Positions 1-17,651 of a stretch of DNA of 64,000 nucleotides are shown one piece after another. The notes under the pieces were generated by a model. That model made no database searches. It had not been told where the DNA came from and worked only from the letters and a program-made list of their open reading frames with translations. The stretch's first letter is position 1. The number at the start of each line of letters is the position of its first letter. A program made the position numbers and the translations under genes. The stretch comes from Yuukianura sp. NJ FZ-2021. Taxonomy: Eukaryota. Where the stretch lies: the NCBI GenBank assembly GCA_046563655.1, contig CM102283.1, forward strand, positions 2,356,001-2,420,000, in the 5' to 3' direction.

Positions 1-21
1 TTTTGTTTTGGCAGTTAAGGT

Positions 22-1243
22 ATGCCTGTCCATTACTCGGAAGAGCAGCGCCTTTGCATAATTAATCTTCGGTTGGAGTACAAAGATGAAACCAGTACCG
101 AGCTCATGCACAAATACAATCAAAATCCTATCTCGCAAAATCGACCTATGGAGCATCCAAAAGATGTGAACCGAATTCTTAAACGATTCTCTGAACTGGG
201 TAACACTAAAAACCGTCGAAAATCTGGAAGACCAAAAACAGCGACAGACGAAAACTCGGCAATAGGGATTCTTGGGGCTTTTGCGGCTGATCCTCATATT
301 TCAACCAACCAAGTTGCTCGTGATATGGGTGTTTCGCAAACGTCTGTTATGAAGGTGAAAAATCAGTACAACTGGAAGTCCTACAAACCTAGAGTCCATC
401 AACTCCTAAAATTTACGGACTATCCTGACAGAGCCTGGTTTGCAAGAATTTGGCTTCCAATGCTAAACGGAATACCTGACTATGCGAAAAACATCGTCTT
501 CACCGACGAAGCAACTGTAAAACTGGACGGAACTGTTAATCGGCAAAACTATAGATACTGCTCGGATACGAATCCGCATTGGAATGTCCCAGGTTAGACT
601 TTTAAAAAAAGGTGACTTAAAAAGGAATAGTTGTGTTTTGCAAAAAAAATCCCCTCCATAACTAATTAGTGAAAACTATGGTGGGGTATTGATGCCATGA
701 TTTTTTCTTCTGATTTTAGTTAAAACTCAATCGGCCGGAAAAGTGAACCTGTGGGTTGGTCTTTTTGGTGACGAGGTGATTGGACCAATATATTTCAACG
801 GGAATTTGACGGGACAAATGTACCTGACCATGCTACAACAACAAATTGTGCCTGCAATTTTGGCTTCAGCAACACGTCAAAACATTCCACATGCTGACAT
901 CATTTACCAACAGGACGGTTGTGGGCCGCATTTTTCATTAATTGTACGAAACTACCTAGATCAGACTTTTCCCCAAAGGTGGATTGGACGTGCCGGTTGG
1001 TTTCATTGGCCAGCTCGTAGCCCAGATTTTTCGCCACTTGATTATTTTGCGTTTGGGACAATGAGAGGGAATATTTTTTTACCGCCAAGACCTGCCACTG
1101 CGTTGGACTTAATGCGACGAATTGACGATTTTTTTCATGTGCACGTTACGCCTGAAAAACTCAGAAATGTAAGAGACGATTTCCGTAAACGTTTACAACT
1201 TTGTCTTCAGGAAAATGGGAGTCATTTCGAACATTTAAAATAA
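22..1243 (+). mobile_element. Tc1/mariner-superfamily transposase, DD41D (rosa/Visitor-type), two exons, ORF intact (364 aa)
   Basis: Exon 22-592, GT-AG intron 593-719 and exon 720-1243 splice in frame (..NPHWNVP-VKTQSAGKVNLW..). HTH-like N-terminus with GRPK, FTDEA (D1), QQDG (D2), WPARSPDFSPLDY (D3), 41 residues between D2 and D3. 5' TIR is outside the window; candidate 3' ends CACTGTA at about 1519 or 1822. Confidence 0.9.
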
Positions 1244-1520
1244 TGTGCTTGCTACCCCTCCATATTCTGCATATTTTTTCCATTTCCATGTGTTTCTTGG
1301 TCAAATGTCAATGTAAAGCCGATTACTGTTGTTTACAATTTGTTATTTTAAGGCAATAAATTCACCTTTACACTATCCGTAAAGCTTAATTAATAATTAA
1401 TATTTCAAAACTAATGTTTTAATACAACTTCTGGTAGGCGCAACACTCCACTGAATCTAACTTTCCGACAGAATGAACGAGTATTTGGGTTGGGGTAAGG
1501 TGTAGTGGCCGTCACTGTAT

Positions 1521-1692
1521 CCGCAGAGTGTAAGCATCCGTGATTTTTAGTGGCTACAACGGCTGGTGGCTACTCGGTGGCTACTCTACGTCAACTTACG
1601 TAGCCGCTTTATGTTTGGCAAAAGGGGTAAAATTTCAGTTGCCACAGCCCTTATTGTAGTGACTAAAACAGCGGGATGCCTACACTGTGCGG
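1521..1692. mobile_element. Short MITE-like element with ~38-bp imperfect terminal inverted repeats
   Basis: ccgcagagtgtaagcatcc...tttagtggctacaa at 1521 mirrors ttgtagtgactaaaa...ggatgcctacactgtgcgg ending 1692; no clear TSD. Confidence 0.55.
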
Positions 1693-1947
1693 TTCCAATG
1701 ACGGTCGTTGATCCTTACGGTGACCAGTATTTCCGAACCGAGAGGGGGTTTTGTTCCGAGAAATGGAGGAGTGGCTGAGATTAAGCTCATTTGCATGGCC
1801 AGAACATAAAACTATCACTGTATCCCGCTCTTAGTAGCAACTAAATCTCAGAAGCTGAACCGTGTGACCCAAAAACAAACTACACCCGGTTTTTTCTTTA
1901 CCTGAACCGGAAGTTACTTACTAAATATTTCGTCGTTGGGATCAGCG

Positions 1948-4476
1948 ATGACAACGTACAAGGCTATGACAATCGCTGGCAGCGATAGTGGAGGGTAAGA
2001 TAAGGATTTACAAATAATTCATGTAAACAAAACAATTGATAAAAATCAAAATGTTAATAAATTCATTCGTGTTACCTTGTGTAACCGGGTACAGAAATGG
2101 AGGCAGAGTTGGACAAAAAGTGTGATGAGATTTTCTGTATGACGAAATGAGAACGTTGCGTGGGTCACCAGCAATAATGGTGACATTGTCACCGGTGAAA
2201 TGTTTGGAGTTAACAAGTGCTCCAATACTATCAATTAGAAGTTATCCTGCGTAGTTTAGTTAGTAGTTGATTCATGATATGATGCTCACGAGTCACGATT
2301 CTTTTTGTTTGTGACCCCTTGACATTTAGCGGAGCCGGTATTCAAGCTGATCTGAAGACGTTCACATGCTTGGAAGTATTTGGAACGTCAGTCATCACTT
2401 CCGTTACGGCGCAAAATACTGCCACGGTTGATGGAATCCATCCAATTCCTGGTCCATTTGTTAGTCAACAAATGGCTTCTGTCTTGAGTGACATCGGAGC
2501 CAATGCAATCAAAACCGGTAATGGCCAAACTCCTGCTGAATTTTTATGATAATCTAACGGAATAATTTTATTCTTTTGTCGTTTTCTGAAACAGGAATGT
2601 TATGCAACGCTGAAATTATTGTCAACGTTGGCCAAACGCTACAGAAATTTTATTCACCGCTCCCTGGTCAGCCCATTCCGAACTTCACGATTGATCCAGT
2701 AATGATATCATCAACTGGAGCTCAACTTCTGGAAACGTCCGCCATAGAGGCTCTGATCACCCACCTTCTTCCGATTTGTCATATTCTGACTCCGAATGTA
2801 CCCGAAGCACTCAAGATCTTAAGCGAAGGAGGGAAACTTCGAAATCAAGGGGTGCCAGAAACAATTGCGACAATCGAGGACATGAAAATGGCGGCCAAGG
2901 CTCTCGCCTTTTTTGGTCCGAAAATTGTGGTGCTCAAGGGTGGCCACCTTCCATTTAACATGCAAACGAAAGATGCTGCTCCAGCATGTGTTGTGGACGA
3001 CCATTCAGTACATGCTGAAACTCCGTTCGAAGTAGTTGACATCGTCTATGATTCTGAAAGCGACACATTTACGGAATTCCGAAAGCAGTTTCTTCGTGTC
3101 AACAACACACATGGGACAGGGTGTACGCTGAGTGCTGCCATTACTGCTTACTTGGCGCGAGAACTTAAACGTCCGTTTTCATACTTTGAAATTTTTTAAA
3201 ATTTAAAAAAAGTACGTGTGTAAAAAAAAATTCGTTTTTAGCTTTGGATGCAATCCAGAAGGCACTACGTTATGTCCACTCAGCAATTGAAACTGGATTT
3301 GCTGTCGGAAAAGGAAGCAGACAACCGCTTAATCACTTTCACGGAATAGTGCCCCGGGCACTGAGTCTGTAAGAACCAATTAGCGTTCAGCTATCAATAC
3401 GATCCGCATTTCCACAATTTTGAAAAAAGAAACGTTTCTAATCTTCAAAATTTTGAATTTTAGACCATCCAACTCCAACCCACATCCCCTGTTGAATCAC
3501 TTACTGGATTCCTGTCGATCAGACTGGGACAAGTATACTAAACATGCGTTCGTCAAAGGCATTGGAGATGGAACGCTACCCAGAGAATGTTTTATTCACT
3601 ACATCATCCAGGACTACTTTTTTCTGGAGAATTATGCCAGGGCGTATGCTCTTGCAGCTCACAAGGCCAAGAGTCTGGAAGAGTCAAAGAGCTACGCTGA
3701 CACTGTCATTGCAATCGCTCATGAAACAAAGTTACACAAGGAGGTAAACTACTTTTCTTGTGTTCATTTTTGAAGCGCTATCCATATTTTTAAAAAACTG
3801 ATGAAATTTTTGAAAAAAGACAGAATTTTCTGCAATCCGATTTTTTTGATTTTTTTTCTGTAGATGTGTGCCAAATGGGGTGTGTCCTTTGAGCAAATTT
3901 TAGCAACTCCAGAAAGTATGGCCAATGCTGCTTATACTCGTTACGTTCTGGATGTTGGTAAGATCATGTTAATTTGTTTCACATTTTCTTGATTAATCAA
4001 GAGTTGTCGAATTAGTCTTTGACGAAAGTTGTGATTATACTTGGAAGTATTTTTATGCAGGAGCCATCGGAGATATACTGGACTTGAATTTGGCAATGGC
4101 CCCTTGTTCCTTTGGTTACGGAGAGATCGGGACAGAGTTGATGAAGGATCCCAGGACACTTAAGGGTCCGGAGAACCCTTACTGGGAGTGGATTCAAAAT
4201 TACGCTGGAAAAGACTATCAGGATGCTATGTTCAGATCAATCGGTAATCACGAACAGAAAGTTTTCATTTTCACAAATTTCGAAAAAGTTTGTTTAGAAA
4301 CGGATTTTTACTTTAATTAAGTGTAATTTACATTAATTGGTTTAACAGAATTAATAGAGAGGATGGCAGCCACTGTGCAACCTTCGCTGCATCGCTTGGC
4401 GGAAATGGAGAAAATATTCCGTCTGGCAACGAAGCTGGAAATTGCATTTTGGGACATGGGCATGACTCGGACGTAA
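1948..4476 (+). CDS. THI20-like: HMP/HMP-phosphate kinase (ThiD) fused to thiaminase II (TenA); fungal THI20/THI21-like architecture, 8 exons, 540 aa
   Basis: Exons 1948-1994, 2330-2517, 2595-3170, 3242-3368, 3464-3743, 3864-3957, 4061-4243, 4349-4476 (all GT-AG, 1623 nt). ThiD motifs [53 protein letters not shown]; TenA motifs YIIQDYFFL, YTRYVLD, APCSFGYGEIG, NPYWEWIQNY, LEIAFWDM. Confidence 0.93.
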
Positions 4477-4827
4477 CCGATGGTAACCTAGGCTACGTCG
4501 ACCCACCAGGTCAATGCCCTAGTCAGTTGTGTTAGTAGTAAGAGACGAGTGACCTTTGACCTTCCATGAGTTAGAGACTAAAAAGACTATAGCTTTTAGT
4601 TTAAAAGTCTGAAAAGAGTTATATTTATAACTGTACGGAAGAAGTTCTTTAGAGGAAACAATAAAGTTGTGTTTTAATTTATAGGAATTTTTTGTAGTAA
4701 TAAATTTTGTATAAGTGTTTATTTTTTATAATTACAAAATTTTAAAAATACTATTGGAAATTCTAAAGTTTAAAAAAAATGACTAGAAAATGTAAACTGC
4801 ATGCAACTTAACTAACAAGTTAAGGGT

Positions 4828-6372
4828 TTAGACAACTTCGGCTTCCGAGTTTTCTTCCGCCGGAGGTCTCCGAGTTGTGAAGAAGCAAAACGTCAACTAA
4901 AATTTACAATTCACATGTCAGGTTTTTTTCAAAAAAAATTTTGACTCAAAATTTTGAAATTTTTTCTTACAGAGCATTCCAGAATTGATAGGCAAAATGT
5001 TGCTGCTGCTTGGATGGTGTCTAGTATAACAAAACCTCGTCCAATTACTTGGAGGTGAATCAATGGCAGCGATGTTACCAAGAATACGCTGGAAACTGCA
5101 AGTGAGATCGTCACCGGAACATAACTTACTTCCTCTATCTGAAACATTAAGGTTAATACATTCAATATAAATATTCAAACTGTATATTTTAATATAAATA
5201 TAATATTTTATTCACTGAAGTGCAGCGGAGAATTGAGAAGATGACACACAGCGTAACGAAGTTCAGCGTAAAATACGAAAATGGCAAAAACAGAATTGGT
5301 TTTGGCTCGTCTTTTGGAAATTTCCAAAATTTTCCCAAAACAAATGCTAACCAAAATGTGGTGAGACTGGCTTGGTAAATACAAAGAAGCACCTTTTGTC
5401 AAAATTTGAAAAAAAAAAAAACACAACTTTTTTTTAAATATTTAATTTTCAAAAACCAAATCTTCAAATTAGCTAACCCGCAGAATGTGGATGGAATGAC
5501 TTGTGTTTTTCCATTTTCGTAGTTTTTGCATGAAAAATGGTAGAAATAGCATCATGGTCCTAACGAGAACATAAATTTAGTCTTTATATTTTAATATAAT
5601 TTTGCATATTTGAATCTATTTACTATGTATTTTATTTACGACAAAATTCCAGTATGTAAAAGTAAAGCATTGAGTAGATCGTCACCTCCATTCCAAAACC
5701 AGGTTGTATCTGTTCTGTGCAAGAAAAAAAGGAAAAGCAGAATTGAAAAATATTAATTTCAATTTTTTTTAAATTTCAGTTTGAAAACTAACTTACAAAA
5801 TTGTACAAACTAATGAGACGGAAGCAACACTGAAATTTAGAATAATCTGGAAACGAATGAGATTGGAGTAAAAACGACGCTGGACATTTCGTTTTTGGAA
5901 AAAATCTTCAAAAGTTATTGGACTTGTGCGATACTTAGCAAAAGAGCTAATACTTCCCTCACATTCTGGAGCATCCTGTAAGTTATAAATATATAAAATA
6001 CTATAACATAATTAAGCATATAATATAATTGATATAACTTCTTACCGCACCAACTGTTACTATCGTTGTTAAGGTCAATGGACCACATTGAACTTTTCGT
6101 TTTTGGATATCTCCGTCGCTGTCTGTGGTCGTTGAGCAAGATTCAAGTTCGTGTTTCAAACACTCCGACATTTTTGAAATCTCTGTATTCTTCAATTTCA
6201 AATTAGTTTTTCCAAATTTTTCTTTTGAAAAATTGTAATTAGACACACAACAAGCACTGAATTTGTTCCGAACTGCAGAGATCATTGAATCTTCTTGTTT
6301 TTTGGACAAAGGCGTGAAGGCGTCTCGTTTTTCTGAGTCACGGCTTCTAATAGATAATTTTTTCCTTGGCAA
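4828..6372 (-). CDS. Uncharacterised multipass membrane protein, multi-exon; 5' structure uncertain
   Basis: Hydrophobic exons joined by GT-AG introns (RTMMLFLPFF.., VLLCIYQASLTTFWLAFV.., IEEVSYVPVTISLAVSS.., LTFCFFTTRRPPAEENSEAEVV*); no family recognised. Confidence 0.55.
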
Positions 6373-6744
6373 AGTTGCAAAAATCGCAGGAAGTGTGTGA
6401 CTTGTTGTGTGTGTAGGCGTACATTTAACATCACAGTATCATAAAAACATCCAAATTCGCACAAGTTTTTTCAAATCTCAATGAGTTTGATGAAGCTTTT
6501 TGCTCTGAAAGCTTACCTTGTCACTTTTTCACACTTAAAAAAAATATCGGAGAAATTTGCGAATCTCTGAGCGAGGAAAACTCGAGTGAGTATATGAAAC
6601 TCACGGATCTGAAAGTCACATGGCAAAAGTGCTCATTTTTTTTAACTGGCAGAGTACTGAAAGAACTATTTTTAACAAGTTCACCGTTTAATTTATTCTA
6701 AGTTTTTTGGAATTCAAATTTTGCACACGAAAAGGAAGTACAAA

Positions 6745-7962
6745 ATGGCAGCGTCTTTTACTAAAAACTCTACCGGAAATGTTATTCCAACGACCGCAGA
6801 TGAAGTTACAGCCGATTGGTTTACAAGTGTCACTGGCATTGAAATTCCCGAGTCAAAAACTTTCAAAATTTTGAAAAATCCAAATGCTTCTGTTGGAAAT
6901 CTAAGTCAAATGGTTCGTGTCGGATTTTCAAGTGAAGATCAAGGTCAAGGTCACGATCGGAGCTTCTTTATCAAACTTCGTTTGGTTCCTACAAATGACT
7001 TTGAGCGCGGAGTATTGGAAGTCATCATTGTAGAAAACATGGATGGTCGTGAAGTATTTTTCTACCAAACGCTGAAATCCGAGCTGGAGCGACTCGTCCC
7101 CGAGTTAAGTCAGTTTTTCGTACCGTGTCGCTGCGCTGTCAAGAACGACACTGGATCGGTCGTTATTCTAGAAGATATGGGTCCACAGGGATACTGGATG
7201 CCTGGATTCGCTTCTGGACTTGCTCCAACATTCTACCATCGCAGCATTCACTTCATTGCACAGTTCCATTTTGCTGGTGAGCTGCTTCAGCTGGAACACG
7301 GTCGCGGTGCCAACGGTTTGCTGACATCCTTCCCACTACTAAATACTTGGCACGTTCCACGGTCCGACAGCACGGTGTCGCTGGTTAAACAGTTTCCAAG
7401 CCTTGATTGGTTCTCGGTTGGACTGGAATTTATGGCCGCCAATCTTCTGAAACCGTCGGATGCCGAGCTTTTCCGAGCGCTGATTCCACATTCCGAGAAG
7501 ATTATTCGCTGGATCACCGAAGCTGGCTCGAAAAATCCAACGATTATCCATGATGACCTTTGGCCTTACAACTTCTTGTGTCATGACAACGGGGGGATCA
7601 AGGTCATCGATTGGCAACTTGTGGGATTTACTGATCCAGCATACGAACTTGTCTATTTCTTTATGTCGAGTCTACCCGAAGACAAGATAGATTCAGCCGA
7701 AATTCGCCGAGGACTGGAAACCTATTACAAAATTAAACAAGAGTTGTACAATAGGAAGCAATTGAAAATGGGAAGATCGCTGGAAGAATTTTTAGAATTT
7801 TTTGAGACTTACGGACTCTGTTATGGATTTTTAATTATAACGATGAGTGCTGATTCCATCTATGCACAAGAGTCCTACAGGCCTAAACTATCCAAAATAT
7901 ATTCCTACTTTTGTGATGCACAAATACCTCAACGGTTATTAGCTCAACACGCAAACAATTAA
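6745..7962 (+). CDS. Ecdysteroid kinase-like (EcKL / choline-kinase-like) protein, single exon, 405 aa
   Basis: SFFIK, REVFFY, VILEDM, IAQFH, Brenner motif HDDLWPYNFL, IDWQ, PAYELVYF. Confidence 0.85.
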   Translation: MAASFTKNSTGNVIPTTADEVTADWFTSVTGIEIPESKTFKILKNPNASVGNLSQMVRVGFSSEDQGQGHDRSFFIKLRLVPTNDFERGVLEVIIVENMDGREVFFYQTLKSELERLVPELSQFFVPCRCAVKNDTGSVVILEDMGPQGYWMPGFASGLAPTFYHRSIHFIAQFHFAGELLQLEHGRGANGLLTSFPLLNTWHVPRSDSTVSLVKQFPSLDWFSVGLEFMAANLLKPSDAELFRALIPHSEKIIRWITEAGSKNPTIIHDDLWPYNFLCHDNGGIKVIDWQLVGFTDPAYELVYFFMSSLPEDKIDSAEIRRGLETYYKIKQELYNRKQLKMGRSLEEFLEFFETYGLCYGFLIITMSADSIYAQESYRPKLSKIYSYFCDAQIPQRLLAQHANN

Positions 7963-8252
7963 ATTTTGTTTATTCAATTTAAGGTTAGATTAATCAAATC
8001 TAACCTGTAATTCTACAATCTAAATAAATTGTGTAACTAACTACATCTCGAAATCGTGTCAATCCAAAACCAAATTAATCCGACTATCACCCTAACGTTA
8101 AGTATAAAAATTTGATCAATTTGTTACACTTTCATAAAAAATTATTTCATAAGAGAAAATATATGGACATTTAATGTACTTTAATTAATTAAACTTAATT
8201 TAATTTAGACACATCTCTATACCAAACACCAATTGTATTCGTAGGAGGTGAA

Positions 8253-8361
8253 ATGGTCAAAAACAATTTCATCAAAAGTGAAAAGGTCAACAATTACAAA
8301 CAGGTTTGACTTTGTTTTATGTTTGACCTTCTCACTTTTTGACCAAATTGTTTTTGACCAT
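8253..8361. repeat. Foldback inverted repeat (MITE-like) between convergent EcKL and Bcl-2 3' ends
   Basis: atggtcaaaaacaattt..aaaagtgaaaaggtcaa pairs with ttgaccttctcactttt..aaattgtttttgaccat. Confidence 0.6.
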
Positions 8362-8768
8362 ATTACATGGAACCATTGTATTCGTGTATCATACACACCA
8401 TGTGACTTCCACTTCAAAAAAAAAACATTGGCTAAAGCTTTAGCTTTGACAAATAAGGTGTTAATGCAATTTGAAAAAAATAACTAATTAATTTTTTTAA
8501 TCAAACTATTCTAGTTTTAATTGGTTAGGCTAACTTAAGTTGTTCCCATTTTCCCATGTGAGGTTATAATTCATTAGCTAACTACGTAGGTAAATTAATG
8601 TTTTGTGTTCCTTTTAATATAAAGTGAGATCATTCACAGAATTCGAGCTAACTGGGTTAGGCAGAGGCAGCGAACAGGCGGTTTATGGTATTGGGTGTAT
8701 TTGGACTTTGAACAAGTTTGACCTTTGACCTTGACCTCGGATCAGGGTCAAGGTGGCTGATCAGCGTT

Positions 8769-10559
8769 TCAGCGCAGGAGAGAGGAAATGTACATGGTAG
8801 CAGCTAGACCGACACACAGACCAGACCATAAAATGGCTCTTCTCAACTGCGGCATGTCGTCACTTTGCCGTGTTTCCGGTCCTGGAAATTGTTCGACTAG
8901 TCCCATCTACCAAAATCCAAATTAAAAAAAAAGTCATTTCTGAAAATTCAACTAACTTCTAAAAAAAACTCCAAAATTTTGAAGTTGTGTTTTGCTCACC
9001 CATCCGCCATTTTCTTTTACAAAGTCTATCACATGCTTCGTGAGGTAAGAAGCTAAGAATCCCGTAATATCTCCAACTCGACTGTCGTTCTAAAAATAGC
9101 CAAAATGAGTCAAAATTAATCACAAATCAAAATTTCAAAGTACATAAACTGACCTTGTTAAAATTCTGGACTGTAAGATAGTACTTTGCAACGATAATCT
9201 TTTGTTTATGCTAGGCTTTGTTTATGTTAGGTTATGTTTATGTTTAGGATGACTCACTTGACCGTATTCTTGGGAAAGGCGAACGGCAAAGGCAAAGAGG
9301 GCTATGATCCGACCCCACGTTATTCTTAGTTGACTTGGTTCGTTTGAATTGGCCTGAAAATTAAAAAATAGAACGATGATTAATGTCAATGTGACACTCA
9401 GCATTAATTAAACAGCGATTCTCAATAGTTAGATTGAAATTGAACAAATCAATGGACGGTGTCTTTTACAGTTTAAAACTGTTAAAGTAATCGGAGCTAT
9501 TAATGGAAGCAACTAAGTTTTATGTTCTCATTAAGTTTCAGTTCCTTCCCACGACAACTTGGCGTCACTTGTATGACTAAAAGTTATAAAAGTTAAGAGA
9601 ATGACAACGAAAAACGTGACAAAAGAACAAAGATTAGTTTATCCTAAAGTGACATTAAGTTAAACATTACGTCATCATCCTAATCAGTGTCATTCATCAA
9701 CCGCAAAGTACTTTTGGTATGACTCACTGTTAATTTAATTCCATTCATCACAAAAACGTTCAATTTACAAACCGATTATAGTAAACCTACGGTAACTTAC
9801 AACTTAAGGTGAGCGTTGTTAACTAAATCGACCAACACCAAAGCGTAAGGTAAGTTAGACTATGAATTTTCCAGACAATCCGCGACGACAGAAAAACGTC
9901 AGAAAAACGAATTATGCCAAAAATCGTTTCTGGCTTATCTACGGCGGAAACTTCCTGGAAAATTCCAGTGATGACCAGGACTAAAAGACCAAACGGGTTT
10001 AGACAGAAATAAAGCAAAAAAAGGAAAAACCAAGGTACTACAGTTAGTAAAACTAGACAATTTATTACCATTTACCTCAAATAACTCATTGGCAACACAA
10101 GTAAATTCATGGTAATGATGTACTTGTATCCGATTGACCATTCCAGTAAAGAGGATGACATGTTTCTGGAGAATGTCTCTGACACAGGCACACAGTGCTT
10201 GTAATACGACGTCCCTCTGGTCATCTGGACATTTGTTATCAAATGCAACCTCTTGGATAACCCACAGTGCTAACCTCTGACCTAGAATTACAAAGATATC
10301 CAGAATTACGATCCAATTGACAACAATATACCATGTCCTTCATCATCATCATCTTCATCACTAAGCTATAGCACATTGCAAATTATGATTTGTTTTTGTT
10401 ATGTGATGAAAATGCACCTCGAATTATTGTCTGATCAACTTCGTTGTCACTTCTGCGTGACTCCAGTCGACTGTCCACTTCGTCCACGACACCAGCAACA
10501 GCTGCGGCACAAGAATTGTGCCTGGCAGTCTCCGTCGTCGTACTTGATTGCGACCCCAT
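8769..10559 (-). CDS. Bcl-2 family apoptosis regulator; 5' exons uncertain
   Basis: BH1-like VANELFE..ITWGRIIALFAF, BH2-like FVKENGGW, C-terminal membrane anchor AILWSGLCVGLAATMYISSLLR*; GT-AG introns. Confidence 0.85.
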
Positions 10560-11926
10560 TTCGATACGTTCTCAACACGACGAGATCTACAACGAGACTG
10601 AAAAGTTAATTTTGACTGTGATTAAATGTTAACCGATGTTATGACGTTGCTGGTTCACACCGAAGAACAAGGATCCGTTCCAAAAATTGTAAGGCTTGAG
10701 AATTAGCCAGAAGCGCTTAACATACCACCGCACAAACCACCCACCCTTTTATTCTTCTTTTTTGTTTATCAAACAGCAGCCAACCTAATCTTACCGTGCA
10801 TTTCCAAATAAGTGCCCATATGGGGGTACCAATTCCTTCGTCAACCATTCAGTGGGGGTACTAGACTAGGGAACTCTTGGGAACAAAATTTCCAGAGTTG
10901 GATTGTGAAAAGTTCGACTGAAATTTAACTTATAGAGGTAGTTGAATTGCAAATATTCAAGTGAGATCTACCTGTTATAGACACTAGAGATATCTGAATT
11001 TTGAAAAATAGACTTGGAAAGTTAGCTTTACGCTTTACATTTTGGATAAATTTTAAATTTTAAAATTTTGGAATTGAAATACAACTGTCAAAGGCTTCTG
11101 AATTTTAAAAAATTAGGTAGAAAGGTAGGGCTTTGGAGCTATTTTTGAACAATGGAGCTATTTGACATAGTGGAGAAGAGTGGTACTAATATGGAGACAT
11201 TATTTGGCACATGTACGAGTTGGAAATTTACGGTAACAGAGCCTCGGACTTGAACAGACTTTTACTATGTAGTAAAGGGAACAGGATCCATGGGAACAAC
11301 CCCAAAATTCCATTCATTCCTCCGCTCTTTCACGCACAGAGCCTAAAATACGCATCGCTACACAATTTTTTGTCAAAGAAACTGCGTGTAACGTTGCGTT
11401 GTATTGATGTGGGTACAGTCGGAAAGTTCCTAGACGTTATGTAACACACTGCGTCGTAAGATTCATACAAAATCTTGGAAGAATACCCAAACAATTTTAT
11501 GGATTTGGAAAAGTGAGGGATTTTGGGATCTACTTTCGGTCAGAGATCAAGTTTCTTCGGGTTTTTCTTCATTCATTCATGAGAGGACAAGAGAAAGGAG
11601 TTCTTTATCCCCGAAATTCTTGGAAGTTAGAGTTCTTAACCCTCCCGGATTCTTGGAAAAATGTCGACATTCCAGCGTTCTAAGAGGGAAGGGAAATCGT
11701 CATCTTGTCGTTTCTGATGGTGACAGCAGCTTAATAATTCTGAAAGTTTTATTTGCCAAGTGAACCAAAATTTTCAGTAAATTATAAACTGACCTGTGAC
11801 TTGCCCTGACCTTGGTCGTTAACTGAAATTAAGAGGAAAGTGGATAATCTAAAAATTAACTTTAACCAAAAGTTGAATTTGAAAACCTGAAGAATATACT
11901 TTACAAGAGTATCTGCAGAGGAGGAT

Positions 11927-12874
11927 TTACGTTCCTTTTTTGATTGAAGCATCGCTGGACTTTCCTCCCAAAATCTTTTGACGTTGAGCAAACATGTGAA
12001 AGTAGAGCTGTGGAAAGACTGCAAAAGACAAAAGACATGGAACGGTTACATCCCGAACAGCGATCATACATGTATGAGGGGATAAAAAATTGAATGAACT
12101 TACTTGGAATATAGCTGAGCATTACGGCAATGAGAAAGTACTGGTAGTCAAACGCCATGTTGCCAGCATTTGGCATTCGGATGGTCAAGAGTTGATGTTC
12201 TTTGACGTATTCCAGAGCGGCGTAAATGGAAATGAGTTCTCCAGTGACACCAATTGGGTAGAGGAAGATGAAGAACGTGTAACTGTTAAGAATTCAAAGA
12301 ATACAACACACATTTTAGAAAAAGTGTCAAGCAGGAAGGTCAAACTGAGGTCAAGTAAAGTTCAACCTGACTTTAAAGGCACAGAAAATTACCGGAACCA
12401 TTGGAGTAAAGATGAAAGTCCGATGAGATGCAGAACATAGTATCCATAGCGGATGATTTCAGTGACGGACCAAGCGAATAGTAACATCGGGACACCAATT
12501 GAAACTTGGGACGGAGGACTCAGATGAAGTACACCCCAAACCGCGAAGACGCGCGACAGAACTTGAAAAGTTGTCAAGAAAACGTTGGACGGGACAATTC
12601 CAATGATTGCATGGACAACCTGGAAACAAATCGAAGCAAAAGAGCAAAACTTACAACAATTCTTCAAATTTTGAAAGTCGGGCACGGTAATACTTACCTC
12701 CATGACGGCAGCAGTTTGAAAAATTTTGAGAGGAAGTTCCACTTTGGTCCAGATTTCGTCCAAATTGGAGTAATTTTGAACAGAGATGAGGAGGACATAA
12801 GCCCACCCGAACGTCAGAAGTCCATTGTATAGAATTAAATAGCCAGTTGCCAGAGGATTACTTTTTGGAGCCAT
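11927..12874 (-). CDS. HACD: Very-long-chain 3-hydroxyacyl-CoA dehydratase (PTPLA/PHS1 family), 4 exons
   Basis: YLILYN, FQTAAVME, QVLSRVF, WSVTEIIRY, catalytic LYPIGVTGEL, FPQLYFHM, C-terminal KKGT* ER-retrieval motif. Confidence 0.92.
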
Positions 12875-12894
12875 TTTAAGTCAGGTGAGTTCTT

Positions 12895-13923
12895 TCAATT
12901 GTCCGGGTCTTCCTTATACTTATTCCACTTGGAGTTGGACGGTTCTGGAGGAACAAAGATAGAACCGGCGGGTTTCGGTTGTGCAGCTCTGGAAGACGTC
13001 AAAAGTGATGCTGCGCTGGTAAAACCTCCAGTACTGCCTTGGTTTGGTTTGGAAGTGTCGCCGTTCCCGTTAGCAAAATTGACAATAGCCTTGGCAATAC
13101 TGACGGACTCTTCTTCCAATTCACCACTGGCAAAGTTCAACGTTTGGACAATTTTTCGACACTCTGCTCCAGTACCCTCACCATATGCCTGTCAACAAAT
13201 ACATGTGGAAAGTTAGGAGCTGACATTCGTTGATTTTCAACAGTCATGACTTTTGACTCTCGCTGTACCTTCAAAAACGTCTGTTTCTTGTTGCAAATCT
13301 TGCAAGTCCACTTGTCCGATGCTTGTTTTACAATATGGTTCTGAAATAGAGAATTAAATTTTCAAGTTCACTGAATTATCTTATACTTATTTACCAATTA
13401 TCTGATTTAAAAGATTACATAATCGTGCGAACCTTTACAAACCTTAGCTTAGTTTCAAACATAACTAAACAGTTATTATGCGACTATTTCTCACAGTCTG
13501 ATAAAAACCCAGCAGAGGAACCGGTTTGACAACACACTTTTAAATGGACTAATGCTGCTACACAGTCAAATTCACATTGTATCTTAATAGTTACATTGGC
13601 CGAGTGCTCAAAATTAAAAAAATAAGCCGTTTCAAATCGTTATCAACTGAACATTGACCTTTCTGCTCTTCCCTTCCCATCATCTCTCCAAAAAGTTATC
13701 AACTTTATCATTTATCGTCAACCGTGTTACTCTTAAAAAGCTTCCAAATTATCATTTTGCATTCGCCAACTCGCGTAGGTAGTAAACACGATTTTGTTTA
13801 AATTCTAATTCCGGAACGCCTAATGAAAATAGAACGACGCGACGTGCCAGCGCCAACATATCTATATCTTACCTGAAACTTTTTACAATTCACACAACTC
13901 AAAACATGAAATGTTTGTGGCAT
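12895..13923 (-). CDS. MRNIP: MRN complex-interacting protein (C5orf45/UPF0544 family), 3 coding exons, 138 aa
   Basis: Exons 13923-13873, 13340-13269, 13188-12895: MPQTFHVLSCVNCKKFQ..KWTCKICNKKQ..AYGEGTGAECRKIVQTLN..SKWNKY. Confidence 0.85.
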
Positions 13924-14683
13924 GGCTTTTGATGCTCAGTTACAACTGTCACTTGACCTCTGGACAAATAACGATGAAATCTGACATTCAATCAAGGTAC
14001 GGATCAATCGGAACTCGGAAGGGACGGGACCGGGAAGATATAACCGCACCCGCATACACACGGCTTCTGCCGAGTAAACTGGATGAAAAACTGATAAAAC
14101 AAATCACCAAAACACAAATTCAAAATTTAAAGAATAAAATACTACACAAGCACTACATTGACATTGACATTGGAGCACAGACCAAAGACCACAGTTTTTA
14201 CATGTGTTAATCTAAAATGTGTAAATCAGTGCAAAATTATTTTGTTACGTATGTGCGTGTGCCATACCTGTCTTACCTGATATGATGCCACTCACTGTCC
14301 TGTGTACCAAATCACGTTCAATCTGTTCAAAAGGTCAATGAAGGTCAAAAAGCGAGAACAATCAACAACAACTTTAAAATTAATGCTTCACCGGCAGGAA
14401 AACTTTACTTTTTCTTTTTTTCACAGCCAACAGCTGATCCTGTTTGGGGATTTTCAAAACCTGAGGCTCGAATTAAAAATGGCGCGGACTTTAAATTTTG
14501 AAAACAATAGCCGCGGGTGAACAAGAATGTTGCCTGTAGCTTTTAGTCCAACCGACCTCGAGCACATGTTGTTTAAGCTTTGACTTTTTTGAGAAACAAC
14601 CAGTTTTTTTTTTTTTATAAGTTGCTTACATTTTTTAAAGTAAAGTACGATTGTTAATTACGAACGGTTGATTGATTGAGGAA

Positions 14684-16614
14684 ATGAAGGTGAAAGTGTT
14701 ATCACGAAACCCGGACAAGTACATCAGAGAAACTAAATTTCACTTGCACAAAGTCCCCAGAAATTATGATCCTGCTTTACATCCATTTGAAACTGCTAGG
14801 GAGTACACTAGAGCTCTAAATGCTGTCAAATTGGAACGGGTTTTTGCTAAACCATTTCTAGGGTCACTGGACGGTCATGCCGATGCCATCACTTGTCTTG
14901 AAAAGCACCCACAAGAACTATCCTGGCTTTATTCTGGAGCTGCGGACGGAATTGTAAGAGACCAAATTTGAAAAATAATGAAAATAAAACAATAGATTTC
15001 GAAATATTATTAAAAACTAAAATTCCATTTCTTGTTGCATTCCAGATCAAAATTTGGAACACGCCTGCCAGAAAATATGTCCAGACACTACAAGCTCACG
15101 ACGGATTCGTCCGCGGAATTACTTTTGCTCAGGATTCTAACACATTTATTTCCGTTGGTGACGATAAGAACATTCGATTCTGGTCTGCACTGCCGGACGA
15201 CTTGGTTGGAGACAGCGATTGGAGTCCCACTACTGCCAAACACAATATTGTAACCAAGGTAAATCCAGCAACCAGAATCGGACTAAAAAAAACAAATCGA
15301 ATGTAATTACAAATTACCAACCAGGTCTTACATTCCATTTTTCCAGTATTCCTTGACCACGATCAGTCATCATGCGAAGAAATCGCTTTATGCCACCGGA
15401 GGAGACTCTTGTCTTGTTTGGGAAACCCAGCGGAACGAACCACTGCACAAGTATGACTGGGGTGTAGACACTCTCAACTGCGTTAGGTTCAACCAATCTC
15501 AAACAAACGTTTTGAGTAAGTCAAAAAACGAAATTACAAAAGTATTAGGTTCTTGGTATTCCCAAATCTAAGTACTACATTTTTTTGTACACAGGCGCCT
15601 GTGCGAGTGACAACAGTGTGATGCTGTATGACATCCGTGGTAACAGTCCTATTAGGAAAGTAGTGCTGACGCTGCGTGCTAACGTTATGGAATGGAATCC
15701 AATGGAACCTTTTGTATTCGTTGTTGGGAGTGAAGATTACAAGTGAGCCAATTACTGAAAGATTTCAGTCAGAAACGTTATTCATTTGGTTTATAAATAA
15801 ATCTCACTTCTTAGCTGCTACGCTTTCGACATGCGTAGATTGAAAGTTCCACTGAACATTTACAAGGACCATGTCAGTGCTGTGATTGATGTGGACTTCA
15901 GTCCGACCGGCAAGGAGTTTGTGTCGGGAAGTTATGACAAAACTATTCGAATCTTCGAAACGGACAAGGTGAGTTTTTAAACGGATAATTTAATTTTTAA
16001 TTACTAACTTAACTTAATATTTGATTAAACTTAACTTTTTCTGTGAAACAGGGTCACTCCAGAGAAGTTTATCACACGAAACGTATGCAGCGTCTGACAT
16101 CAGTTCTTTGGACGAGGGACAACAAATACATTATTTCTGGAAGTGACGAAATGAATATCCGAATTTGGAAGGCTAAAGCATGGGAGAAACTAGGAGTGGT
16201 ACAAAAAAAACTAAAAAACTGAAAACTGTTCTCCTCGCTTGAAGGTCAATCATTCACTGTTTTCCTAATTTTTTAAAAATGTTTTTGACAGTTGAAAACA
16301 ACAGAAAGGCAAGCCCTGAATTACAACGAAAGTCTCAAGGAAAAGTTTGCCAATTTTCCCCAAGTCAAGAGGATTCTCCGTCATCGTCATGTACCGAAAC
16401 ACGTTTTCCATGCCAAACAAGAGCACCGGACCATCCACAACTCCAGACTCCGAAAGTACGTTTCCACTTTACTTTCATATTATTTTAATATAATATATAA
16501 TATGTTTATTTTTTATTTATTTTTAGGGAAGGCAATCGACGTTCTCATTCGAAACCAGGAGCAGTTCCATTCGTACCCGCACGGACAAAGAATGTTGTTT
16601 CGGAGGAACAATAG
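14684..16614 (+). CDS. DCAF13: DDB1- and CUL4-associated factor 13 (Sof1, WD40)
   Basis: MKVKVLSRNPD, PRNYDPALHPFE..REYTRALNAVKLERVFAKPF, WD repeats, YHTKRMQ, GSDEMNIRIWKA, Sof1 tail RILRHRHVPK. Confidence 0.95.
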
Positions 16615-17025: not shown

Positions 17026-17651
17026 ATGTCTAGTTATCTGCCGATATCGATACCGCTAAGTTTCAGGCGTTTCGTTCACAGGTCGACACGGTCATGTCAA
17101 GGTCAAAAAGATGCAGGAATACCGTCAAGCGATGTAGTAAAAACAGCACATTCAGCATCAGCGTCAAGCTCAACTGTCGTAGATCCAACGAGTGAGTAAA
17201 CATTTCCAAATCAGAGGAACTAATTAACTTAAGACGGTTGACTGACGTTTAGTTTCTTTTCAGGGTTTAAGAAGGTGGAGCCAACATACTTGGACAAGCA
17301 TTTCTTGGTATGGTCAGGACATTATAAATCTAGAGATGAAATCCCTAAGACCGTGGAGTAAGTTCATAATAGTTGAATGATGATTAGCAATTTAGCATAT
17401 TATTACTAATTAAGTTATTGACGAACGTCTTATGTTGTAGTCTACCAGCCATTGAGAAGTCACGGAGCGTATCCAGAATTCGAATCAACTTGGGGTTTAT
17501 GGTGGTGGGACTGGCGACAGCAGCAGTTATGATCTACCTTGGCAAGAAATCGTTTAAACAAGGAGATTCACTGGAAACTAGAAATAGAGCCTGGCATCAG
17601 CAAGTCAAGGAAGACTACGAACGTGAGCAGGCTGCAGCATCGAAGCAGTAG
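17026..17651 (+). CDS. FAM162: FAM162/UPF0389 family membrane protein, 3 exons
   Basis: PTYLDKHFLVWSGHYKSRDEIPKTV, SRIRINLGFMVVG..MIYLGKK..GDSL..N..WH. Confidence 0.85.

What the first reader, a model, noticed from the sequence alone, without database searches (positions are those of the whole stretch)
11927..14300. MRNIP and HACD ORFs lie 20 nt apart: two unrelated proteins from one transcription unit
Seen (minus strand): the MRNIP stop (12897-12895) is followed by aagaactcacctgacttaaa and then the HACD ATG (12874), out of frame, with no polyA signal or promoter space between. Inside the last MRNIP exon is a strong acceptor ttctatctttgttcctccAG (exon would start 12944) followed by 70 ATG-free nt up to the HACD start. 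A donor CAG|gtaaga at 14277 marks a likely non-coding leader exon. Inference: either a dicistronic mRNA with reinitiation, or a shared leader spliced to ~13959 (MRNIP, with HACD as 3' UTR) or to 12944 (HACD). Splicing MRNIP exon 2 to 12944 gives an ORF ending TAA-A-ATG at the HACD start. This would couple a DNA-repair factor to very-long-chain fatty acid elongation.
Basis: partly seen in the sequence, partly recalled or inferred. Interest (0 to 1): 0.7.

Follow-up and report, generated by a model that had tools for sequence, protein, structure and literature searches.

The report
Springtail MRNIP-HACD shared messenger RNA
In springtails a small DNA-repair gene ends a few bases before a fatty-acid elongation gene on one messenger RNA, and most of its coding sequence avoids start codons, so it appears to double as the leader of the second gene; the arrangement is known from fruit flies, but this gene pair was not found in print.

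Summary
MRNIP (138 aa) ends 20 nt before HACD (224 aa), out of frame, and the only AATAAA/ATTAAA lies after HACD. The genome is springtail-like. The pair is conserved: 7 of 8 distinct springtail-like contigs have MRNIP 2-42 nt before HACD. Four are intronless and one ends in poly(A). Accessions are near-consecutive in Orchesella dallaii and Allacma fusca. MRNIP exons 2-3 avoid ATG (3 in 2,592 nt; 24.5 expected by synonymous randomisation), but exon 1 does not (5 of 9 chances used against 0 of 20 in exon 2). Best reading: ribosomes scan through exons 2-3 to HACD, mainly on a transcript lacking MRNIP's start exon. Reinitiation after MRNIP and the 12944 acceptor are unlikely to be the general route. 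No RNA of this species was available, so isoforms are inferred. This is a known kind (fly dicistronic loci where a 'splice variant disrupts 5' CDS'). The scan noted other such pairs in this genome before, not this one. No functional link between repair and lipid elongation was shown.

The parts
14277..14564 (-). Probable non-coding leader exon/promoter zone. The 3' end is fixed by the donor at 14276; the 5' end is unknown (ATG-free back to 14567). Lies head-to-head with DCAF13.
   Evidence: Donor 12.2 bits, with weaker donors at 14295 and 14267. No minus-strand ATG between 14567 and 14265. Use as an exon is inferred; no RNA.
13873..13959 (-). MRNIP start exon: acceptor 13959, 36-nt UTR, ATG 13923, first 17 codons with CxxC. 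Holds one out-of-frame ATG (13907, 2 codons). Not ATG-depleted.
   Evidence: Alternative upstream acceptors at 14078 and 14090 score as well.
13341..13872 (-). MRNIP intron 1 (532 nt, 11 ATGs), CpG-rich near its 5' end; possible site of an alternative start
   Evidence: CpG o/e 2.08 at 13750-13899, the highest of 26 bins.
13269..13340 (-). MRNIP exon 2 (72 nt): coding for MRNIP and, as inferred, 5' leader of the HACD mRNA; no ATG
   Evidence: PF15749 E 3.5e-4. 0 of 20 ATG-forming codon choices used in 7 sequences. Acceptor 9.2 bits, in the training set.
12895..13188 (-). MRNIP exon 3 (294 nt, stop TGA 12897-12895): coding and inferred HACD leader; one out-of-frame ATG at 13184 (15 codons)
   Evidence: PF15749 E 3.5e-5. 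3 of 34 chances used in 7 sequences.
12944..12966 (-). Acceptor-like motif inside exon 3 (an exon would start at 12944); strong here, weak in relatives; use not shown
   Evidence: 9.9 bits; 0 of 172 exonic AGs as high; relatives' best 2.6-6.1.
12875..12894 (-). 20-nt intercistronic spacer
   Evidence: Relatives have 13, 8, 16, 31, 41, 42 and 2 nt.
11927..12874 (-). HACD (very-long-chain 3-hydroxyacyl-CoA dehydratase), 4 exons, 224 aa; ATG context A at -3, G at +4
   Evidence: The only close copy found in the genome; the other match has 22% identity.
11748..11753 (-). First AATAAA downstream of MRNIP exon 2; probable shared poly(A) signal

Best explanation
MRNIP and HACD form one conserved springtail transcription unit with one 3' end after HACD. 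Transcripts that include the MRNIP start exon carry both ORFs and make MRNIP. HACD is made by 40S subunits that scan through MRNIP exons 2 and 3, which are kept nearly free of ATG in every frame, and start at the first good AUG, 20 nt past the MRNIP stop. The main way for a scanning subunit to reach exon 2 is a transcript that lacks the MRNIP start exon. In this genome that most simply means the leader donor at 14276 joined to the exon-2 acceptor at 13340 (about 0.4), or else an alternative first exon or start in intron 1 (about 0.2). MRNIP coding exons 2-3 would then double as the roughly 390-nt 5' leader of the HACD mRNA. Shown by tools: gene models, conserved adjacency, intronless contigs with both ORFs in relatives, ATG avoidance and its boundary at exon 2. 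Inferred: scanning, the isoforms in this species, their proportions.
For: Adjacency: MRNIP lies directly before HACD in 7 of 8 distinct springtail-like contigs (L003-L006, L026=L033, L027, L052). L026 was not in the profile and matched at E 4e-15; L052 holds only the MRNIP tail (E 0.052). O. dallaii CAL8113473/CAL8113475 and A. fusca CAG7816676-78/CAG7816679 are near-consecutive accessions on contigs of equal length; these are two orders. Four more unnamed MRNIP/HACD protein pairs share a contig length (1461, 1668, 1544, 1372; contigs not seen). L003-L006 are intronless; L003 ends in poly(A) shortly after an ATTAAA. ATG avoidance: 3 ATG in 2,592 nt of exons 2-3 plus spacer in 7 sequences, against 47.9 from base composition and 24.5 from synonymous randomisation (0 of 3,000 at 3 or fewer); HACD control 38 out-of-frame against 29.6. 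Lys before TG: AAA 0, AAG 13, against 37/29 elsewhere; NAY before G: T 2, C 19, against 57/35. Met: 0 of 800 aa, plus 0 of 907 aa in 8 further springtail-like proteins, against 1.6% in other homologues. Boundary: chances used were exon 1 5 of 9, exon 2 0 of 20, exon 3 3 of 34, HACD 37 of 71; among short, distant uORFs 5 of 8 against 0 of 18. Start-exon-less forms: L003 joins non-exon-1 sequence to exon 2; 2 of 3 annotated A. fusca isoforms and P0214 do too; L005 has an 11.1-bit donor 47 nt before the MRNIP ATG. L007 keeps a decayed, stop-interrupted exon-2-like stretch and a donor upstream of HACD.
Against: No RNA of this species was examined. Exon-1 DNA comes from only 3 sequences, and 3 of the 5 used ATGs are from L005 (without L005: 2 of 4 against 1 of 45, p 0.015). 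Exon-2 chances are the same three codon pairs in each species, so they are not fully independent; L005 and L006 are 89% identical in HACD. All five exon-1 ATGs open short uORFs (1-18 codons), which a leaky-scanning model tolerates. L004 and L006 begin in intron-like sequence and may be unspliced RNA; L006 has 7 ATGs there. Short-read contigs can merge overlapping transcripts. L026 has AATAAA in its spacer, so MRNIP may end before HACD in that species. The A. fusca isoforms are annotations whose basis I did not see. The L007 relic is weak (nhmmer E 0.078 over 253 kb; 0 of 300 shuffles against the window's exon 2, but 7 to 297 of 300 against the other six exon-2 sequences).
Confidence: 0.6

Rival explanations
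1. Single dicistronic mRNA read by leaky scanning. Some subunits pass the MRNIP AUG, pass or briefly translate the tiny exon-1 uORFs, and scan the ATG-free exons 2-3 to HACD, as in green-algal bicistrons. It can coexist with the best explanation.
For: L005 holds both complete spliced ORFs. ATG depletion before ORF 2 is the signature described in PMC11291117. MRNIP start contexts have A at -3 in 1 of 3; HACD contexts in 7 of 8. Exon-1 uORFs are 1-18 codons and end 290-410 nt before HACD.
Against: Exon 1 uses ATG-forming codons as freely as HACD (5 of 9 against 37 of 71), while equally short and distant hypothetical uORFs in exon 2 are never made (0 of 18). The MRNIP AUG has a purine at -3 in 3 of 3, so it is not very weak.
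Confidence: 0.25
2. In this species HACD comes mainly from splicing of the leader or exon 2 to the internal acceptor at 12944, giving a 70-nt ATG-free leader or a TAA-A-ATG junction.
For: The motif scores 9.9 bits, higher than the real exon-3 acceptor (6.8), and 0 of 172 exonic AGs match it. It would remove the window's one exon-3 ATG (13184). L007 may use an acceptor 20-46 nt before its HACD ATG.
Against: Weak in 7 relatives (2.6-6.1 bits, though some real acceptors score that low). The pyrimidine run encodes the IFVPP-like stretch also seen in L005 and L006. ATG avoidance extends upstream of it. Four intronless contigs keep the whole exon 3.
Confidence: 0.08
3. Termination-reinitiation after the full MRNIP ORF, or an IRES in exon 3.
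For: Stop-start distances are short (2-42 nt). PMC10275272 gives 20 nt or less for viral TURBS cases, falling off beyond about 30 nt.
Against: It does not predict ATG avoidance 100-360 nt inside the MRNIP ORF. Three of 8 spacers exceed 30 nt. The TURBS core word (recalled, UGGGA) lies within about 100 nt of the stop in 1 of 8 sequences. No excess structure: z -0.44 and -1.00.
Confidence: 0.04
4. Two independent genes: HACD has its own start inside MRNIP exon 3, MRNIP ends near the spacer, and the contigs are assembly merges.
For: AATAAA in the L026 spacer. Short HACD-only contig lengths exist (915-1,085 nt; not seen, and possibly truncated). 45 of 159 fly dicistronic loci have monocistronic forms of both genes.
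Against: No AATAAA/ATTAAA between the MRNIP stop and the HACD stop in the window or L003-L006. ATG avoidance covers exon 2, upstream of an intron. The spacer is as short as 2 nt in L052.
Confidence: 0.03

Closest known systems
Drosophila melanogaster dicistronic loci with 'splice variant disrupts 5' CDS' (vnc, 24 nt; CG7950, 15 nt; CG18624, 21 nt; CG42518, 28 nt; Xport, 51 nt; Tim10 and CG7071 by retained intron). Crosby et al. 2015, PMC4528330, File S1; sections 6 and 8 read.
   Same: Unrelated ORFs a few tens of nt apart on one mRNA. The downstream gene also has a form in which splicing destroys the upstream ORF.
   Different: Different genes. The fly MRNIP orthologue (CG43295, per PMC11227471) and the HACD names I searched (Hacd, PTPLA, and CG6746 and CG9267, which are recalled) are absent from the 11 readable supplementary files (file 1 not readable; release 6.04). 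The fly cases rest on transcripts of that species; this one rests on relatives' contigs and codon statistics.
Green-algal bicistronic loci read by leaky scanning (Duenas et al., PMC11291117; abstract and section 8 read)
   Same: Short ORF 1 with ATG under-represented before ORF 2 and normal ATG use in ORF 2.
   Different: Depletion here is stronger (observed/expected 0.06 by base composition, against medians of 0.43-0.49 there, by a different method), and it spares the start exon, which points to an isoform switch rather than leak alone.
Other close-spaced two-ORF units noted by this scan in the same genome (COA4-PTRH2, Tim8-Pex3, LTO1-METTL25, SRFBP1-ADAT1, SAMTOR-OGG1 and others; one search listed 8 of 26 notes)
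   Same: Same genome, small upstream ORF, short spacer, several described as ATG-free.
   Different: Unchecked AI notes on other gene pairs; none of those shown concerns MRNIP or HACD.

Membership tests
Dicistronic gene pair (FlyBase sense, SO:0000722) | Two non-overlapping, separately conserved protein ORFs on one strand | tested here: met
Dicistronic gene pair (FlyBase sense, SO:0000722) | A processed mRNA spans both ORFs | tested here: inconclusive
   Met for relatives at contig level: L005 has both complete spliced ORFs; L003 has exons 2-3, HACD and poly(A). Not tested in this species; contigs are assemblies, not single molecules.
Dicistronic gene pair (FlyBase sense, SO:0000722) | Both proteins are translated from the same mRNA isoform | not testable with these tools
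   Needs ribosome profiling or reporters. The best explanation has HACD made mostly from another isoform.
Leaky-scanning bicistron (green-algal type) | ATG depletion upstream of ORF 2 | tested here: met
   3 in 2,592 nt against 24.5-47.9 expected, for exons 2-3 plus spacer; exon 1 is not depleted.
Leaky-scanning bicistron (green-algal type) | Weak start context at ORF 1 | tested here: inconclusive
   -3 base is G, G, A in 3 MRNIP starts and A in 7 of 8 HACD starts; no species Kozak matrix was built.
Dicistronic locus with a splice variant that disrupts the 5' CDS | A transcript form lacking the upstream ORF's start but keeping the downstream ORF | tested here: inconclusive
   Suggested by L003, two A. 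fusca isoforms, P0214 and the L005 donor, and by the exon-wise ATG pattern. No junction was observed in this species.
TURBS-type termination-reinitiation | Stop and start within about 20-30 nt plus an upstream 18S-pairing motif | tested here: not met
   Spacers reach 42 nt; the core word (recalled) is near the stop in 1 of 8 sequences.
Read-through or fusion gene | ORFs in frame or joinable by splicing into one protein | tested here: not met
   Frame offset 2; none of the 28 AG sites between 13260 and 12874 gives an open fusion to HACD; spacers occur in all three frames.
SL trans-spliced operon | Spliced-leader addition at an acceptor just before the downstream ORF | not tested
   No SL RNA search was made. 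The four intronless contigs keep exon 3 joined to HACD, which argues against resolution at the spacer.
MRNIP (PF15749) | Profile match above the gathering cut-off | tested here: inconclusive
   The two exon pieces score 21.8 and 25 bits on adjacent profile parts, each below 27. The L005 protein carries PF15749 and named springtail homologues are annotated MRNIP.
HACD/PTPLA (PF04387) | Profile match above the gathering cut-off | tested here: met
   84.4 and 61.8 bits against a cut-off of 27.

The most novel reading that the evidence does not exclude
Across springtails, choice of one small start exon is a regulated switch between two unrelated proteins. With the exon the unit makes MRNIP; without it the rest of MRNIP's coding sequence serves as the scanning leader for the only HACD1/2-type dehydratase found in this genome. 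MRNIP's protein sequence is thereby barred from using methionine past residue 17, and in one lineage (L007) the coding role may have decayed while exon 2 persists as leader.
Probability: 0.3. Interest if true: 0.6.

Novelty: new member of a known kind. Interest (0 to 1): 0.4.

Why it matters
It is a well-supported case of coding exons under a second constraint: a protein that avoids Met and ATG-forming codon pairs so that ribosomes can cross it to reach the next gene. The exon-level boundary of ATG avoidance is a sequence-only way to tell isoform switching from pure leaky scanning, and it could be applied to the other close-spaced pairs in springtails and flies. In practice, RNAi or expression readouts for either gene in springtails would hit both. 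It is not a new kind of system, and nothing here links DNA repair to lipid elongation.

Tried and rejected
RNA of this species: no RNA holder listed, so no reads were laid; this is no evidence either way. Homologue search with the exon-2 frame among longer proteins: 0 of 2 candidates scored. Pfam family search of the own genome: no match, and the control rang nowhere, so uninformative. A single-protein search found the two window exons plus two weak hits (E 0.033 with two stops; E 0.47); no second MRNIP was found. Recalled guess that fly CG42380 is MRNIP: unsupported; PMC11227471 names CG43295. Fusion or read-through: rejected. Structured IRES: no excess folding. Idea that short MRNIP homologues in other taxa are generally Met-free: rejected (6 of 25 short against 25 of 97 long). 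MRNIP profile on the other 49 of 58 metagenome HACD loci: no match better than E 1; most hold little upstream DNA or only later exons, so this is weak, and only L018, L022 and L028 have the HACD start with over 1 kb upstream. L008 and L012 (54-55% identity, about 100-125 nt upstream) were left unclassified. Literature: 'MRNIP'+'dicistronic' 0 papers; at least 3 of six HACD/MRNIP/dicistronic terms gave 2 unrelated mouse papers; Collembola or springtail with dicistronic terms listed nothing on nuclear dicistronic genes of springtails among the 20 shown of 2,576 and of 28 (listings only). The library lacks most subscription papers, and current FlyBase was not available.
Full report
Observation. 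On the minus strand the MRNIP exons 13923-13873, 13340-13269 and 13188-12895 give a 138-aa protein, and the HACD exons 12874-12698, 12619-12393, 12282-12104 and 12018-11927 give 224 aa, all with GT-AG introns. The spacer is 20 nt and out of frame, and none of the 28 AG sites between 13260 and 12874 gives an open fusion. Pfam finds MRNIP on the exon-2 and exon-3 pieces (E 3.5e-4 and 3.5e-5, each under the cut-off) and PTPLA/HACD well over it. The first AATAAA or ATTAAA downstream of exon 2 is at 11753, after the HACD stop. DCAF13 starts on the plus strand at 14684, head-to-head. The genome has 98.7 Mb in 22 contigs; one other HACD-like match (22% identity) and no second MRNIP were found. The closest named HACD relatives are from Orchesella dallaii and Allacma fusca, so the animal is springtail-like. 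No RNA of this species could be examined.

Conservation of the pair. A scan of metagenome contigs with 14 springtail-like HACD proteins returned 58 loci. I classed nine as springtail-like from identity and N-terminus (L003-L007, L026, L027, L033, L052); L033 is identical to part of L026, leaving eight. Seven have an MRNIP ORF ending just before HACD, with spacers of 13, 8, 16, 31, 41, 42 and 2 nt. L026 was not used to build the profile and matched at E 4e-15; L052 holds only the MRNIP tail (E 0.052). L026 also has DCAF13 divergent upstream. The other 49 loci gave no MRNIP match better than E 1, which is weak evidence because most lack upstream DNA. In named genomes the accessions are near-consecutive: O. 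dallaii CAL8113473 and CAL8113475, A. fusca CAG7816676-78 and CAG7816679, two orders of Collembola. Folsomia candida has both on a scaffold of the same length, adjacency not shown. Four more unnamed MRNIP and HACD proteins share contig lengths (1461, 1668, 1544, 1372 nt); I did not see those contigs.

One mRNA. L003-L006 lack the introns that the window, L026 and L027 have between MRNIP exons 2 and 3 and within HACD. L005 holds both complete ORFs. L003 ends in a poly(A) run shortly after an ATTAAA. These are assembled contigs, so a merge of overlapping transcripts cannot be excluded, but the window and L003-L006 have no AATAAA/ATTAAA between the MRNIP stop and the HACD stop. Against: L026 has AATAAA in its spacer, so MRNIP may end there in that species.

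ATG avoidance. Exons 2-3 plus spacer hold 3 ATGs in 2,592 nt over seven sequences. Expected: 47.9 from base composition, 24.5 when synonymous codons are redrawn (minimum 14 in 3,000 draws), 31.9 when codon order is shuffled. The HACD ORFs of five of them hold 38 out-of-frame ATGs against 29.6 expected. Lys before TG is AAG 13 times and AAA never (37 AAA, 29 AAG elsewhere); NAY before G ends in T 2 times and in C 19 times (57 and 35 elsewhere) (p 1e-4 and 1e-5). There is no Met in these 800 residues or in 907 residues of eight more springtail-like proteins, against 213 in 13,424 residues of 123 of 140 other homologues (17 dropped for lacking the anchor motif or for length); 31 of 122 such homologues are Met-free over the same span. 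The records are not all independent (L005 and L006 are 89% identical in HACD). This pattern is what scanning through the region predicts (PMC11291117, section 8). It is not what reinitiation after MRNIP predicts, since an elongating ribosome ignores internal ATGs (established knowledge).

Where the avoidance starts. Counting codon pairs where a synonymous choice would create an ATG, exon 1 used 5 of 9, exon 2 0 of 20, exon 3 3 of 34 and HACD 37 of 71. Restricted to uORFs of at most 18 codons ending at least 150 nt upstream, the counts are 5 of 8, 0 of 18 and 3 of 11. So the boundary follows the exon 1/2 junction rather than distance, though exon 1 is known from only three sequences; without L005 it is 2 of 4 against 1 of 45 (p 0.015). 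This suggests that the scanned HACD mRNA usually lacks exon 1. In line with that, L003 joins non-exon-1 sequence to exon 2, two of three annotated A. fusca isoforms and P0214 do likewise, L005 has an 11.1-bit donor 47 nt before the MRNIP ATG, and the window has a 12.2-bit donor at 14276 ending an ATG-free stretch of about 290 nt. L004 and L006 start in intron-like sequence and may simply be unspliced. A leader-to-13340 splice would give a 5' leader with one upstream ATG (13184, 15 codons, ending 262 nt before HACD). An alternative start in the CpG-rich 5' part of intron 1 would fit equally. Pure leaky scanning remains possible, because all exon-1 uORFs are short.

The 12944 acceptor. But the best exon-3 sites in seven relatives score 2.6-6.1, the run encodes an IFVPP-like stretch shared with L005 and L006, ATG avoidance extends well upstream of it (3 of 28 in exon 3 beyond 70 nt), and the four intronless contigs keep exon 3 whole. 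It may be a minor, species-specific option.

L007, the exception. Its HACD is 73% identical to the window's, yet no MRNIP ORF lies in the 588 nt upstream. Bases 1-80 align in register with exon 2, carry an in-frame stop and no ATG, and end at a donor. This was the best non-training hit of an exon-2 DNA profile (E 0.078 over 253 kb); 0 of 300 shuffles reached the score against the window's exon 2, but 7 to 297 of 300 did for the other six. It reads as a decayed MRNIP exon kept as leader, and is suggestive only.

Comparison. FlyBase lists 159 dicistronic pairs, with -34 to 319 nt between stop and start for the exclusively polycistronic loci, and notes monocistronic forms that arise from splices disrupting one ORF (PMC4528330, section 6). 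File S1 names several where the splice disrupts the 5' CDS, such as vnc, CG7950, CG18624 and Xport. The fly MRNIP orthologue CG43295 (PMC11227471, passages) and the HACD names searched are not in the readable supplements (file 1 unreadable). TURBS-type reinitiation (PMC10275272, passages) fits poorly, and no excess structure was found. Searches found no paper on this pair. The scan's own notes list 26 similar look-ups in this genome, 8 of them shown and all unchecked; my use of the fly catalogue and the plan to test ATG depletion came before I saw them.

Verdict. A real, conserved, probably single transcription unit (about 0.9) in which HACD is reached by scanning through MRNIP exons 2-3 (about 0.85), most likely on a transcript without the MRNIP start exon (0.6). 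It is a new member of a known kind, with a clear double-duty signature, no RNA from this species, and no evidence of functional coupling. Interest 0.4.

Noticed in passing
window 14684-16545 (+): DCAF13/Sof1-like gene head-to-head with the MRNIP-HACD unit (WD40 and Sof1 Pfam hits); the same divergent neighbour is present in L026, 3.4 kb from the MRNIP start.
   Followed up: partly
window 13936-14090 (-): Two strong acceptors (14090, 14078) upstream of the 13959 acceptor. Their use would put ATGs at 14055 (39 codons) and 13987 (12 codons) before the MRNIP start.
   Followed up: no
window 12620-12697 (-): HACD intron 1 is 78 nt, in frame and stop-free, so retention would insert 26 residues; database protein P0003 shows an insertion at the same place.
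   Followed up: no
window about 8950-10610 (-): Bcl-2-like gene downstream of HACD on the same strand (weak Pfam hit, E 0.09).
   Followed up: no
window 17388-17651 (+): Small ORF matching DUF1075 (E 2.7e-6) just past DCAF13.
   Followed up: no
P0092/P0224 (Daphnia magna cluster): A 124-aa MRNIP with a Met in the exon-1 part and none after it, seen on contigs up to 2.5 kb long. It may be an upstream ORF with another partner, but a quarter of homologues are Met-free over this span anyway.
   Followed up: no
L004:1-70: The contig starts with what looks like a retained 71-nt, ATG-free intron before exon 2, recalling the fly 'retained intron disrupts 5' CDS' cases.
   Followed up: partly
L026 about 8900-10986 (-) and L027 about 3300-3985 (-): Both have a similar acidic, low-complexity ORF (ELPSEDEEDKDW motif) converging on the 3' end of HACD; not looked for in the window.
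   Followed up: no
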